Shown here: positions 1 through 4,087 of the stretch, one piece after another
Position numbering within the stretch: the stretch's first letter is position 1
Layout of the letters: each line of letters starts with the position of its first letter
IMG/VR virus record: IMGVR_UViG_2713896775_000009
Strand: one strand, 5' to 3'
DNA: 5,495 nucleotides
Origin: a virus
Lineage: Duplodnaviria; Heunggongvirae; Uroviricota; Caudoviricetes
Translations under genes and position numbers: made by a program
The notes under the pieces: model-generated
Database searches by the model: none
What the model saw: only the letters and a program-made list of their open reading frames with translations
What the model was told of the DNA's origin: nothing

Positions 1-90
1 ATACCAGCCGATGATGCCCGTCACGGACTGTATTTCTCGTTCACGCATTCACTGATTAACCCACTGATTCAATGGTGTTTAATACTGTGA
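1..90 (+). CDS. Possible 3' end of an upstream host gene (partial, unknown product)
   Basis: Frame 1 is open from base 1 to a TGA at 88-90, convergent with the Dps-like gene and followed by the hairpin at 104-154. Only 29 codons are visible and no homology was recognised. Confidence 0.2.
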   Translation: MPADDARHGLYFSFTHSLINPLIQWCLIL

Positions 91-95
91 CGGTC

Positions 96-154
96 AGAAA
101 AAACAGCCACAGGAACACGGATGATTCTGCACTGTCAGTAATAGCCTGTGGCTG
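96..154 (-). terminator. Putative intrinsic terminator downstream of the Dps-like gene
   Basis: Inverted repeat cagccacagg (104-113) / cctgtggctg (145-154), 10-bp stem, followed on the minus strand by a U-run (complement of agaaaaaa, 96-103). The loop is large (~31 nt), which is atypical. A T-run at 163-170 on the plus strand could make it bidirectional. Confidence 0.4.
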
Positions 155-187
155 ACAAACCGTTTTTTCTGCTGCCACGTGGTGACA

Positions 188-664
188 TTATTCAAGCAGG
201 CTACGCAACATCCAGGCAGTTTTCTCATGTAACTGGATACGTTGTGTAAGCAGATCTGCTGTGGCTTCATCATTCGCATTATTAACGAGCGGGAACAGGG
301 AGCGTGCAGTTTTAACCACGGTCTCCTGGCCCTGGACAAGATTTTCAATCATGTTTTTTGCTGCCGGAATATCCTTATCTTCATTAACCGCTGTTAAACG
401 TGAAAATTCATGATATGTGCCGGGCGCGAAGCATCCGAGCGAGCGTATACGTTCAGCGATATCATCAACGGCAGTGGCCAGCTCATTGTATTGATTTTCA
501 AACATTAAATGTAAGCTGTTAAACATGGGGCCAGTTACATTCCAGTGATAGTAATGTGTTTTTATATACAGGGTATAGGTGTCAGCAAGAAGCCGGGACA
601 GGCCGTCTGCAATCTCCACCCGGGATGATTCAGCAATACCAATATCAATGATTTGTTTACTCAT
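188..664 (-). CDS. Dps-family (ferritin-like, DNA protection during starvation) protein, 158 aa; host gene
   Basis: ORF with ATG start and TAA stop, GAGG about 7 nt upstream. The translation aligns by eye to E. coli Dps across the four-helix core (HW motif, conserved His/Asp/Glu ferroxidase-type residues, DDxTADxLT near the C-terminus) but is clearly not the K-12 dps ortholog. Confidence 0.85.
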
Positions 665-738
665 AACTACCTCTTACACGGTTTCAGTGGAATATACGAT
701 ATGCGATTATTCTTTCCGGTCTGAGCAAAACACGCCTC

Positions 739-760
739 AAATTTTTATAATAAGTTGGCA
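739..760. other. attL core / host-phage junction (B-O-P' type)
   Basis: aaatttttataataagttggca against lambda attL GCTTTTTTATACTAAGTTGGCA. Everything to the right (TAAGTTGGCATTATAAAAAAGCATTGCTTATCAATTTG...) is identical to the lambda P' arm; everything to the left is unrelated to the lambda P arm. Confidence 0.8.
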
Positions 761-779
761 TTATAAAAAAGCATTGCTT

Positions 780-791
780 ATCAATTTGTTG
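780..791. promoter_or_regulatory. IHF H' site of the attachment site
   Basis: ATCAAtttgTTG fits the IHF consensus WATCAANNNNTTR and sits at the position of H' in the lambda P' arm. Confidence 0.6.
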
Positions 792-799
792 CAACGAAC

Positions 800-830
800 A
801 GGTCACTATCAGTCAAAATAAAATCATTAT
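800..830. promoter_or_regulatory. Int arm-type binding sites P'1-P'3
   Basis: Three tandem 10-mers, aggtcactat (800-809), cagtcaaaat (810-819) and aaatcattat (821-830), as in the lambda P' arm. P'3 overlaps the int stop codon. Confidence 0.7.
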
Positions 831-2312: not shown

Positions 2313-2337
2313 TAAAACAAAACTCGCCGTAGCGAGT
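2313..2337 (-). terminator. Putative intrinsic terminator (minus strand) downstream of the 142-aa cargo gene
   Basis: Hairpin actcgc-cgta-gcgagt (2322-2337) followed on the minus strand by UUUGUUUUA (complement of 2313-2321). It lies at the left boundary where lambda identity resumes. Confidence 0.45.
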
Positions 2338-2383
2338 TCAGATATAATTTCCACCAAAGGCAGTAGTTGCTTGATGCTAAGAA

Positions 2384-2812
2384 TTATTCAATATCTATTC
2401 CTGTAATCTCTTTTATCTTTTTCCTTGCAAAGCCTTTTGCTAGTGATTTTGAAACACTCATAAGTGTACTAATTCCCTCATCCTTAAAGTTTGTTTTTAT
2501 AGCTTGCCAGACATCCTTTTGACGTAAGTCAGCAATAAAATCATGCCCTCTTGCTGTCAACCTCAGTGGTACTTCGATCCAACTATATCCAACACCTTCC
2601 CCTAACGCTTTGGACAATATATGACCGAACCCAGGTTTTCCATCAACCCTGACTATTAATTCGTAGTCACATAATAATCGCATATGGAAAATAAAATCTT
2701 GGTCATATCTATTAAAGCCATTATCCTCTAGTTCACTAAGCATCGTGTCAGGGCCACGAGTTTTTTCGAATGCGATAAGTAGATCTTTTAGATATTGCTG
2801 GTCTAATTTCAT
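2384..2812 (-). CDS. Hypothetical protein, 142 aa (cargo gene A), function unknown
   Basis: ORF with ATG start and a strong GGAGG Shine-Dalgarno 5 nt upstream, TAA stop. It is not part of lambda. No family recognised with confidence; the N-terminal MKLDQQYLKDLLIAFEKT may resemble small phage-associated DUF-type proteins. Confidence 0.7.
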   Translation of the reverse strand: MKLDQQYLKDLLIAFEKTRGPDTMLSELEDNGFNRYDQDFIFHMRLLCDYELIVRVDGKPGFGHILSKALGEGVGYSWIEVPLRLTARGHDFIADLRQKDVWQAIKTNFKDEGISTLMSVSKSLAKGFARKKIKEITGIDIE

Positions 2813-2822
2813 TGCCGCCTCC

Positions 2823-2834
2823 GTGACATGTCAC
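2823..2834. repeat. Perfect 12-bp palindrome GTGACATGTCAC in the intercistronic spacer
   Basis: Read directly from the sequence; it lies between the stop of cargo gene B (2841) and the SD/ATG of cargo gene A (2812). Confidence 0.6.
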
Positions 2835-2840
2835 AGAGAT

Positions 2841-3179
2841 TTATATCATTAATTTTGTTTCGTGCCAGCCTTTGGTCACCCAGCATTGTGAGTCACCATT
2901 ACACGGGCATGAATTAACAGGAACTCTCTCGCCGCACTTACCGCACCGTTTTCTGCTGATCGATTTTATACGCCAGCGCACACGTGCATCATCCTGGCGG
3001 CTCAGTAACGCGATGTACTCACCAAACTCGCAAGGCGCACGCCTGAAGCGACGCGTGGCACAGTTACGCTCCAGCATTTCAATTTCCTGAGCATCAAGTA
3101 CAAGCTCCAGCTTACGCATACCGGATGATGCTTGCTTGGCTCTCTGATCGGCTTTGTGCTCTGTTGCTGATTTAGCCAT
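2841..3179 (-). CDS. Hypothetical Cys-cluster (zinc-ribbon-like) protein, 112 aa (cargo gene B), function unknown
   Basis: ORF with ATG start, AGGA about 9 nt upstream, TAA stop. The C-terminus carries CGKCGERVPVNSCPCNGDSQC (C-x2-C...C-x-C...C). It is not lambda Ea8.5, whose sequence I recall as different. Confidence 0.65.
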   Translation of the reverse strand: MAKSATEHKADQRAKQASSGMRKLELVLDAQEIEMLERNCATRRFRRAPCEFGEYIALLSRQDDARVRWRIKSISRKRCGKCGERVPVNSCPCNGDSQCWVTKGWHETKLMI

Positions 3180-3372
3180 TCTGCTTTTCCTGCATCAGGA
3201 GAAAGACAATCATGGCGGCGCGGATACTTCCGGTATCTTTATACGCGATATTCCCCTTCAATGGCACATACAAGAAGAGAGCCATCAACAGGAGTGATTG
3301 AGGAATCGACAACCAGCAACGCTTAATTATCTATAGTGTCGTATTTGCTTCATAAAATATGGCGAATAACAC

Positions 3373-3404
3373 AAAGCCCGCAGCAGCTCATTGTGCGGGC
3401 TTTT
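3373..3404. terminator. Putative bidirectional intrinsic terminator downstream of cargo gene C
   Basis: Hairpin aaagcccgca / tgcgggcttt (7-bp GC-rich core 3376-3382 / 3394-3400, extendable by A:U pairs, 11-nt loop), flanked by an A-run on one side and a T-run on the other. It sits ~70 nt past the stop of gene C. Confidence 0.45.
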
Positions 3405-3472: not shown

Positions 3473-4087
3473 TTATCTAAAAGTCTTTCCACTTTTAACA
3501 TCTAGGTATATTCTGTTCGACAACGTCATTCCTCCGCAATATGTGAAATAGATGTTTTCACCCTTATTGCTTGATGCCATCCACCCTCCGATTTCCTTAA
3601 AATCGCTTTCCGTGCAGACCCCTTCATTTATTAACTTCCTAGCTGCCGAAGAAAACTCTTTTTTGTATATACGGTAGTCATCAGATCCTTTGATTAAAGT
3701 ATCATCTCCGCTCGCATTTTCAGCAGGATCTGATGGCCTTTCACTGCTAAGATCACTAAATTTAACCCATTCTGAAAACTTGCCATTAACGATTCCATTT
3801 TTTCTTGTGCAGGATTTATTACCTTCTTTAATATATTCGCTTTCCCCTCCAACACATGAGGCTGAATATGGCTCAGTTATACGAACCCATTCACCTTTTT
3901 TTTCTAGAAAATCTACGCCTTCCCTGAAAAATAGTTTCCCAGCCACTCCACATTTACTTGAAGGGCAGGTATGTCTTTCCGTTCGATCAACAACAACCCA
4001 TAGTTTTGATTCATTTTTTGCCATTGCCGATGGTATTTGAGATGAGACAATTAACGTAAGCCCTAAAATTAGTATTGATTTTTTCAT
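3473..4087 (-). CDS. Secreted/periplasmic protein with N-terminal signal peptide, 204 aa (cargo gene C), function unknown
   Basis: ORF with ATG start and AAAGGAA SD, TAA stop. N-terminus MKKSILILGLTLIVSSQIPSAMA-KNE is a classic Sec signal (basic n-region, hydrophobic core, AxA cleavage motif). Six Cys in the mature part. Visibly AT-rich. Confidence 0.75.
   Translation of the reverse strand: MKKSILILGLTLIVSSQIPSAMAKNESKLWVVVDRTERHTCPSSKCGVAGKLFFREGVDFLEKKGEWVRITEPYSASCVGGESEYIKEGNKSCTRKNGIVNGKFSEWVKFSDLSSERPSDPAENASGDDTLIKGSDDYRIYKKEFSSAARKLINEGVCTESDFKEIGGWMASSNKGENIYFTYCGGMTLSNRIYLDVKSGKTFR

What the first reader, a model, noticed from the sequence alone, without database searches (positions are those of the whole stretch)
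2384..3179. Tightly coupled two-gene unit: 112-aa Cys-cluster protein followed by 142-aa protein
Gene B stop (2841) and gene A start (2812) are separated by only 28 nt with a strong GGAGG SD, indicating co-transcription and probably translational coupling. Small two-gene units with a nucleic-acid-binding-type first gene in phage accessory regions are typical of toxin-antitoxin, abortive-infection or anti-defence pairs. Neither product was recognised.
Basis: inference. Interest (0 to 1): 0.65.

Follow-up and report, generated by a model that had tools for sequence, protein, structure and literature searches.

The report
Phage DNA-binding gene pair cassette
Two small adjacent prophage genes, a basic zinc-ribbon/ribbon-helix-helix protein and a DUF2513 winged-helix protein, form a recurrent but non-obligate mobile cassette joined by a conserved 12-bp palindrome, with nothing pointing to a toxin-antitoxin or defence system.

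Summary
Gene B (2841-3179, minus strand, 112 aa) and gene A (2384-2812, minus strand, 142 aa) are real genes, 28 nt apart, with a GGAGG Shine-Dalgarno before A. Both can now be placed. A is a Pfam DUF2513 winged-helix protein. B belongs to PHROG 536, the epsilon15 gp49 / phiV10 gp55 family. It has a YbfE/CopG-like ribbon-helix-helix N-terminal half and a four-cysteine zinc ribbon.

The pair recurs with the same spacer in diverged Yersinia, Cronobacter and other enterobacterial prophages (A 54-72%, B 47-62% identity), so it is a genuine cassette. It is not obligate. B usually occurs without A, as the last early gene before a terminator and the terminase genes. A often occurs without intact B, including natural B knock-outs.

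A palindrome, GTGAC-NN-GTCAC, sits at B's stop codon across the B family. In this cassette it abuts A's Shine-Dalgarno, and A looks inserted between that palindrome and the terminator.

My best reading is a mosaic regulator-plus-moron unit, with the palindrome as B's probable operator. A toxin-antitoxin, abortive-infection or anti-defence role is not supported. Function remains untested and interest is modest.

The parts
2841..3179 (-). Gene B: 112-aa basic protein (pI 9.5) of the epsilon15 gp49 / phiV10 gp55 family (PHROG 536). Ribbon-helix-helix-like N-terminal half plus a C-terminal four-cysteine zinc ribbon (C79, C82, C91, C99).
2384..2812 (-). Gene A: 142-aa DUF2513 (PF10711) winged-helix protein with C-terminal helices, mildly acidic (pI 6.3; family median 5.5).
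2823..2834 (.). Perfect palindrome GTGACATGTCAC in the B-A spacer. It extends to a 20-nt, 90% palindrome at 2819-2838 whose 3' arm covers GGAG of A's Shine-Dalgarno.
   Evidence: Found at or near B's stop in 45 of 72 unique B loci, against about 0.6 expected. Seen across phage types. RNA hairpin CUCUGUGA-CAUG-UCACGGAG predicted.
2818..2822 (-). Shine-Dalgarno GGAGG for A, 5 nt upstream of the ATG.
   Evidence: Read directly from the sequence. Conserved as GGAG or AGGAG in diverged cassettes.
2840..2868 (-). Promoter-like element inside B's last codons: CTGGCA (2863-2868), 17-nt spacer, TG-n-TATAAA (2840-2848). Inferred, not shown.
   Evidence: My own reading of the sequence; the consensus scan did not call it. 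The segment is kept upstream of A in four contexts where the rest of B is lost.
2320..2339 (-). Rho-independent terminator, GAACTCGCTACGGCGAGTTT plus a T-run, 45 nt after A's stop.
   Evidence: A terminator also follows A in many diverged loci.

Best explanation
The unit is a mosaic accessory cassette of temperate enterobacterial phages, not a mutually dependent pair.

B is a small sequence-specific DNA-binding protein with a ribbon-helix-helix dimerisation and DNA-reading domain and a zinc ribbon. In its home phages (epsilon15-like and others) it is the last gene of the early operon. Its module ends in a GTGAC-NN-GTCAC palindrome at or just after its stop codon, normally followed by a rho-independent terminator and then the terminase genes.

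A is a DUF2513 winged-helix 'moron' inserted between that palindrome and the terminator. In this window the whole B-palindrome-A-terminator block has been carried into the xis-exo accessory region of a lambda-like prophage.

The two genes are co-transcribed. Expression of A is probably gated at the palindrome, which directly abuts A's Shine-Dalgarno. The gating would come from B binding the palindrome as its operator, from the hairpin that occludes GGAG, or both.

Shown here: the family assignments, the anatomy, the recurrence of the pair, its non-obligate nature, and the linkage of the palindrome to B.

Inferred: that B binds the palindrome, that this controls A, and that A binds DNA at all.
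For: Family and fold.

The B-then-A arrangement with the same 28-31 nt spacer occurs in the Yersinia frederiksenii genome and in diverged IMG/VR viral contigs (A 54-72%, B 47-62% identity), and in Cronobacter prophages.

Gene order is B-palindrome-A-terminator-terS in Cronobacter prophages. It is B-palindrome-terminator-terS in TL-2011b.

The palindrome is at B's stop in 45 of 72 unique B loci, against about 0.6 expected. This includes P2-like Yersinia phages (GTGACGCGTCAC), Pantoea AH07 (GTGACCTGTCAC), ZF40 and Klebsiella phages. The arms are conserved and the centre varies. Many B loci without it at the 3' end have a perfect copy 0.3-1.4 kb upstream.

The palindrome tracks B rather than A. 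It is present in B-only phages and absent from A-only loci that carry no B remnant.

B is basic (pI 9.5). A 12-bp palindrome fits one ribbon-helix-helix dimer better than a winged-helix dimer (established knowledge of MetJ, Arc and CopG operators).

Other genes that follow B also start about 10 nt after the palindrome.

The hairpin covers GGAG, and a terminator follows A.
Against: No binding or expression data exist.

B's structure model is low-confidence (pLDDT 66), and the ribbon-helix-helix assignment rests on sub-threshold matches.

The same palindrome also sits beside terminators at other module junctions. It also occurs inside iteron-like arrays in DUF1376-type replication genes of unrelated phages. 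It could therefore be the site of another protein, or a recombination junction.

Two B-A loci lack the palindrome (L117 and L136).

The extended hairpin is only partly conserved.

The B allele in this E. coli lineage carries P45F and I60S, and in this window also Y50C, at positions otherwise conserved in every other full-length B compared here. B is truncated in several relatives. B may therefore be decaying here.

A is mildly acidic, which is atypical for an operator-binding protein.
Confidence: 0.45

Rival explanations
1. The two genes are purely positional neighbours. A is an independent moron that landed at a recombination-prone junction after B. The palindrome is a module-boundary element or the binding site of some other phage or host protein, and B has no influence on A.
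For: Many different genes follow B at the same junction: terS, a umuD-like gene with a LexA box, an MPKIRY... gene, an excisionase, and A. The palindrome also occurs at other junctions next to terminators with variable flanks and within replication-gene iterons elsewhere. A and B divergences are incongruent between cassettes (A 72% with B 49%, against A 64% with B 62%), which implies shuffling. A homologues at or below 51% identity do not have B directly upstream (one locus, L012, carries B 3.7 kb away).
Against: The fixed 28-31 nt spacing and the abutment of palindrome and Shine-Dalgarno persist over deep divergence. All INPHARED phages that carry the second terminator-palindrome context are also B carriers. 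The palindrome is about 80-fold enriched at B's end.
Confidence: 0.25
2. Toxin-antitoxin, abortive-infection or anti-defence pair. B would be a ribbon-helix-helix antitoxin or regulator and A the toxin or effector.
Against: B occurs without A in about 79% of B-carrying E. coli genomes and in 75 of 80 viral loci. A remains intact after loss of B through IS1 insertion, an internal stop, N-terminal truncation or reduction to a 10-20 codon remnant. A is a winged-helix fold with no toxin or enzymatic domain. There are no PADLOC hits. The palindrome lies between the genes, not in an upstream autoregulated promoter.
Confidence: 0.05
3. B and A act together as a two-protein regulatory complex. The acidic winged-helix protein A would bind B as a co-regulator or anti-regulator, modulating B's occupancy of the palindrome.
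For: The adjacency recurs with a conserved spacer. A is acidic and B basic. Winged-helix domains often mediate protein contacts.
Against: No interaction test was possible. Both genes are commonly found alone. Their phylogenies are incongruent.
Confidence: 0.1

Closest known systems
Pfam DUF2513 (PF10711) / PHROG 585
   Same: A matches the full-length model above the gathering score. It has the same size and the same winged-helix plus C-terminal helices architecture. The family is found in phages and prophages of many phyla.
   Different: The family has no known function. I found one unrelated mention of the name in the searchable literature. This A subfamily (54% identity or more) is distinguished by carrying B or a B 3' remnant upstream.
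Epsilon15 gp49 / phiV10 gp55 / TL-2011b gp20 family (PHROG 536, annotated 'transcriptional regulator')
   Same: B is 70-87% identical to these proteins over the full length, with the same four cysteines and the same palindrome at the stop codon.
   Different: In those phages B is the last early gene before a terminator and terS. Here it sits in the xis-exo region of a lambda-like prophage, is followed by A, and carries substitutions at conserved core positions. The 'regulator' label is an annotation and has not been tested.
YbfE (LexA-regulated protein, NF008671) and RepB-RCR_reg / CopG ribbon-helix-helix proteins
   Same: B has the basic N-terminal arm, a beta-strand (RKLELVL) and two helices. 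There are recurrent sub-threshold matches and ribbon-helix-helix fold hits.
   Different: Scores are far below the cut-off (16.8 against 62 bits). B has an additional zinc ribbon that these proteins lack.
Type II toxin-antitoxin operons with a ribbon-helix-helix antitoxin (ParDE, MazEF, TacAT)
   Same: A small ribbon-helix-helix gene is followed closely by a second small gene, with a palindromic element present.
   Different: No toxin fold is present, the pair is not obligate, natural B knock-outs keep A, and the palindrome lies between the genes rather than in an upstream promoter.
Lambda Q - pR' - tR' late-control cassette
   Same: The terminal early gene encodes a small zinc-containing DNA-binding protein. 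It is followed immediately by a cis element, a terminator and the late genes.
   Different: There is no sequence or fold similarity to Q. No promoter or pause site has been demonstrated. In this window no late genes lie downstream.
MarR / PadR / HxlR winged-helix regulators
   Different: Sequence identity is at or below 20%, Foldseek E-values are 0.14 or higher, the wing has an unusual four strands, and the protein is acidic. The similarity is at fold level only.

Membership tests
Pfam DUF2513 (PF10711) | Whole-protein score above the Pfam gathering cut-off across the full model. | tested here: met
   42.5 bits against 29.6, covering model positions 1-100 of 100. All listed full-length homologues (P0001-P0092, P0094) carry PF10711.
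PHROG 536 (epsilon15 gp49-like) | Full-length profile match. | tested here: met
   E = 7.3e-48, residues 1-111 aligned to profile positions 2-114 of 115. 70-87% identity to epsilon15, phiV10 and TL-2011b proteins.
Ribbon-helix-helix (CopG/Arc/MetJ) DNA-binding proteins | Curated profile match to a ribbon-helix-helix family. | tested here: inconclusive
   No Pfam hit for B itself. Single relatives hit RHH_5, RHH_1 and RepB-RCR_reg at E 0.01-0.07. 14 of 34 relatives hit NF008671, best E = 5.6e-5, all below the cut-off.
Ribbon-helix-helix (CopG/Arc/MetJ) DNA-binding proteins | Strand-helix-helix fold forming an intertwined dimer. | tested here: inconclusive
Type II toxin-antitoxin system | The two genes are co-inherited, and the antitoxin is not lost while the toxin stays intact. 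| tested here: not met
   B is replaced by IS1, has an internal stop, or is truncated or reduced to a remnant, with A intact in each case. Most B genes lack A.
Type II toxin-antitoxin system | The second gene encodes a recognisable toxin fold or is growth-inhibitory. | tested here: not met
   A has a winged-helix fold with no toxin-family hit. Toxicity itself cannot be tested with these tools.
Known anti-phage defence systems (PADLOC-DB 2.0) | Profile match of any component. | tested here: not met
   No hits for A, B or the neighbouring 204-aa protein at E up to 1.
Q-type late antitermination cassette | Regulator gene followed by a constitutive promoter with a regulator-binding site, then a terminator before the late genes. 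| tested here: inconclusive
   The gene, palindrome, terminator and terS order is seen in TL-2011b and relatives. The promoter is only a weak consensus reading that the scan did not call. There is no homology to Q.
Q-type late antitermination cassette | Terminator read-through that depends on the regulator. | not testable with these tools
   Requires transcription assays.

The most novel reading that the evidence does not exclude
B is the so far unidentified early-to-late switch of epsilon15-like (Uetakevirus) and related temperate phages. It would be a ribbon-helix-helix/zinc-ribbon factor that loads at the GTGAC-NN-GTCAC palindrome at the end of its own gene and lets transcription pass the adjacent terminator into the terminase and structural genes. 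The copies of the palindrome next to other terminators would be further control points. DUF2513 (A) would then be a moron embedded in the leader between the loading site and the terminator, and the cassette in this window would be a transplanted copy of that control module.
Probability: 0.12. Interest if true: 0.6.

Novelty: new member of a known kind. Interest (0 to 1): 0.3.

Why it matters
The result removes a candidate toxin-antitoxin or defence call and replaces it with a concrete anatomy: B, palindrome, A, terminator.

It also assigns two 'hypothetical' prophage genes, present in hundreds of E. coli genomes, to catalogued families.

The one observation I could not find in the searchable literature is that a small phage protein family (104 clusters at 50% identity among 1.84 billion representatives) carries a sequence-specific palindrome at its own stop codon across several phage lineages, often next to a terminator.

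This gives a cheap, direct experiment: a gel shift of B on a 20-mer. It also gives a testable hypothesis for how epsilon15-like phages, which have no annotated Q-type antiterminator, separate early from late transcription. If B turns out to be only an ordinary regulator, the finding is routine.

Tried and rejected
- **Toxin-antitoxin or defence reading.** Rejected on non-obligate co-occurrence, natural B knock-outs, absence of a toxin domain and no PADLOC hit.
- **B-like neighbour of the Klebsiella phage DUF2513 gene.** I tested whether the 111-aa gene next to it was a B homologue. It is not.
- **Sequence search of solved structures.** Nothing for B, and one chance-level hit for A.
- **The afdb50 library.** Unavailable.
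- **Palindrome as A's own operator.** Rejected because it follows B in B-only phages and is absent from A-only loci that have no B remnant.
- **Palindrome as a purely structural RNA hairpin.** Considered unlikely. The arms are sequence-invariant, single-arm variants are not compensated, and the core stem is only 4-5 bp. The extended 8-bp stem in this window is only partly conserved.
- **Known host operators.** CRP, LexA, Fur and FNR, recalled from memory, do not fit the sequence.
- **Known RNA families.** No Rfam family matches in the window.
- **A sigma-70 promoter downstream of the palindrome.** Looked for by eye in TL-2011b and in the window. Nothing convincing. The consensus scan found no promoter in the spacer.
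- **Literature searches.** DUF2513, PF10711, the palindrome and ybfE gave nothing relevant. The vB_EcoP_ZX5 paper concerns other genes.

Full report
**1. Context**

The window is the left arm of a lambda-like prophage. It contains, all on the minus strand:
- a Dps-family gene (188-664)
- lambda-type integrase (827-1897) and excisionase (1875-2093)
- a 55-aa conserved ORF (2133-2300)
- gene A (2384-2812) and gene B (2841-3179)
- a 204-aa secreted protein (3473-4087)
- an Ea22 fragment, a DksA/TraR zinc-finger gene and a DUF1382 gene

The 1.1 kb around the pair is 99.8% identical to phage Chlobot and 100% identical to many E. coli prophages. There it lies between xis and exo/bet/gam.

**2.

The coordinates, the 28-nt gap and the GGAGG 5 nt before A's ATG are as stated. 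Both ORFs are genuine genes. They have family matches, many homologues and long-range purifying selection.

Three features are new:
- a perfect 12-bp palindrome, GTGACATGTCAC, at 2823-2834, extending to a 20-nt palindrome at 2819-2838
- a rho-independent terminator 45 nt after A
- scars of earlier recombination upstream of B: the 3' end of ninX (about 3188-3237, by homology) and a umuD-like pseudogene fragment (3212-3319)

**3. What the proteins are**

B belongs to PHROG 536, the family of epsilon15 gp49, phiV10 gp55 and TL-2011b gp20. The family is small, with 104 clusters at 50% identity among 1.84 billion representatives. Alignments show:
- a basic N-terminal arm
- a strand-helix-helix pattern
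- four invariant cysteines: C79, C82, C91 and C99

**4. Is the pair conserved?**

Partly. Counts in 5426 complete E. coli genomes:

| Feature | Genomes |
|---|---|
| B present | 672 |
| A present | 183 |
| Whole 1.1-kb block (at least 80% covered) | about 140 |

These E. coli copies are nearly identical, so they represent one recent module. The informative evidence comes from diverged relatives. B followed by A with a 28-31 nt spacer occurs in Yersinia frederiksenii (A 63%, B 47%), in Cronobacter prophages (A 64%, B 62%) and in about 15 further IMG/VR contigs (A 54-72%, B 47-62%). The cassette is therefore old and real.

It is not obligate:
- In a B-centred sample, A follows B in 5 of 80 loci.
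- In epsilon15-like, Klebsiella, Pantoea, ZF40, P2-like Yersinia and Aeromonas phages, B has other neighbours.
- A homologues at or below 51% identity do not have B directly upstream. One locus, L012, carries B 3.7 kb away.
- Many A genes of 60-75% identity have only the last 10-20 codons of B upstream.
- In E. coli itself, A stays intact where IS1 has replaced B (an ETEC O6:H16 lineage), where B has an internal stop, or where B is N-terminally truncated.
- The divergences of A and B are incongruent between cassettes, which implies shuffling at the junction.

**5. The palindrome**

GTGAC-NN-GTCAC lies at, or within a few bases after, B's stop codon in 45 of 72 unique B loci. About 0.6 would be expected from the background rate.

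In epsilon15-like and Klebsiella phages the TGA stop is part of the left arm (GTG TGA CATGTCAC). The arms are kept while the centre varies:

| Central dinucleotide | Loci |
|---|---|
| AT | 35 |
| GT | 3 |
| AC | 2 |
| CT | 2 |
| TT, CG, GC | 1 each |

This holds even in P2-like Yersinia phages (GTGACGCGTCAC) and Pantoea AH07 (GTGACCTGTCAC). Single-arm variants are not compensated. That argues for sequence-specific recognition rather than RNA structure.

Many B loci without the site at the 3' end have a perfect copy 0.3-1.4 kb upstream. The element tracks B rather than A.

It is not exclusive to B's end. TL-2011b has a second perfect copy next to the terminator after ant. A 14-mer scan of IMG/VR found it beside terminators at several other module junctions. 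The INPHARED phages with that terminator-palindrome context are all B carriers, although they are also all related to one another. In unrelated high-GC phages the 12-mer lies within GTGAC/GTCAC iteron-like arrays, inside DUF1376-type replication genes in four of the six loci examined.

**6. Anatomy of the cassette**

In TL-2011b the order is B, palindrome, terminator, terS. In Cronobacter prophages it is B, palindrome, A, terminator, terS. In this window it is B, palindrome, A, terminator, followed by orf55, xis and int. A therefore looks like an insertion between B's palindrome and its terminator, and the whole block has been transplanted into a lambda-like accessory region.

The palindrome abuts A's Shine-Dalgarno. 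In this window the extended stem CUCUGUGA/UCACGGAG would cover GGAG. That extension is only partly conserved.

B's last codons contain a promoter-like CTGGCA-17-TG-n-TATAAA. The consensus scan did not call it. However, this segment is retained in all four contexts where the rest of B is gone. This is suggestive, but the sample is four.

**7. Mechanism**

My preferred reading (confidence about 0.45) is a regulator-plus-moron cassette. B binds the palindrome and, together with the hairpin, gates expression of whatever gene follows, which here is A. The two proteins do not depend on each other.

The main rival (0.25) is that the link is purely positional and the palindrome belongs to another protein or marks a recombination junction. 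A joint A-B regulatory complex (0.1) and a toxin-antitoxin or defence pair (0.05) are less likely.

One caveat applies to this particular window. Its B allele carries P45F, Y50C and I60S at positions otherwise conserved in every other full-length B compared here. B may therefore be drifting in this lineage while A is kept.

**8. Novelty and interest**

Both genes belong to catalogued families of unknown or only annotated function. The unit is best filed as a new member of a known kind, a phage accessory regulator plus moron.

The observation I could not find in the searchable literature is the family-wide palindrome at B's stop codon. It suggests that B could be the missing early-to-late control factor of epsilon15-like phages (probability about 0.12).

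Overall interest is 0.3.

Noticed in passing
window 3473-4087 (minus strand), terminator 3373-3403: A 204-aa protein with a signal peptide (phrog_8310, unknown function; weak SH3_3 and lipoprotein-signal hits). It is followed by a GC-rich hairpin (AAAGCCCGCA/TGCGGGCTTT) that could terminate transcription in both directions. It looks like a separate secreted moron upstream of B.
   Followed up: partly
window 3188-3319: Recombination scars upstream of B: the 3' end of a ninX (DUF2591) gene, by homology to epsilon15-like and lambdoid phages, and a umuD-like 'DNA repair protein' pseudogene fragment annotated by PGAP. In Klebsiella phages an intact umuD-like gene with a LexA box follows B instead.
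   Followed up: partly
L161 (TL-2011b) 32282; L242-L361: The same palindrome, GTGACATGTCAC, recurs directly beside rho-independent terminators at other module junctions of epsilon15-like phages, with variable sequence on one side. It behaves like a junction or punctuation element.
   Followed up: partly
L260 ~10700-10900; L308 ~1850-1960; L346; L289; L279: In unrelated, mostly high-GC viral contigs the 12-mer lies within arrays of GTGAC/GTCACG half-sites inside DUF1376-type replication-protein genes (peptide ...RDMSQ..VT..VT...). These look like origin iterons.
   Followed up: no
window 2841-3179 (B residues 45, 50, 60, 69): The B allele of the E. coli B-A lineage has P45F, I60S and G69W, and in this window also Y50C. 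Positions 45, 50 and 60 are P, Y and I in every other full-length B compared, apart from one Y45. Several relatives have N-terminally truncated B.
   Followed up: partly
L005 3430-3500 (E. coli O6:H16 M9682-C1): In an ETEC lineage an IS1 element is inserted so that homology to the window ends at 2823, the edge of the palindrome. This removes B and everything beyond it while leaving the Shine-Dalgarno and an intact A.
   Followed up: partly
window 1-826; L004, L005, L008: An identical or near-identical integrase-xis-orf55-A block sits next to different flanks: a Dps-family gene here and in strain AH04, ybhC (the lambda attB side) in ETEC, and a diguanylate-cyclase fragment on a 43-kb circular record in strain SZQ1. 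In AH04 the prophage is a short remnant fused to Rac-like genes.
   Followed up: no
L161 (TL-2011b) ~11590-11625: Between the terminator after B and terS there are two direct repeats, GGTA(A)CTATTACCAC. They are possibly a terminase or regulator binding site.
   Followed up: no
L006, L016, L020, L140-L145 upstream of DUF2513: The roughly 49%-identity DUF2513 subfamily (Klebsiella-type phages, located between the lysis genes and terS) has its own conserved upstream inverted repeat, CAGGCATTCACTGAGTGCCTG, with an extended -10-like TGTGATAAT. This suggests an independent, possibly autoregulated moron.
   Followed up: no
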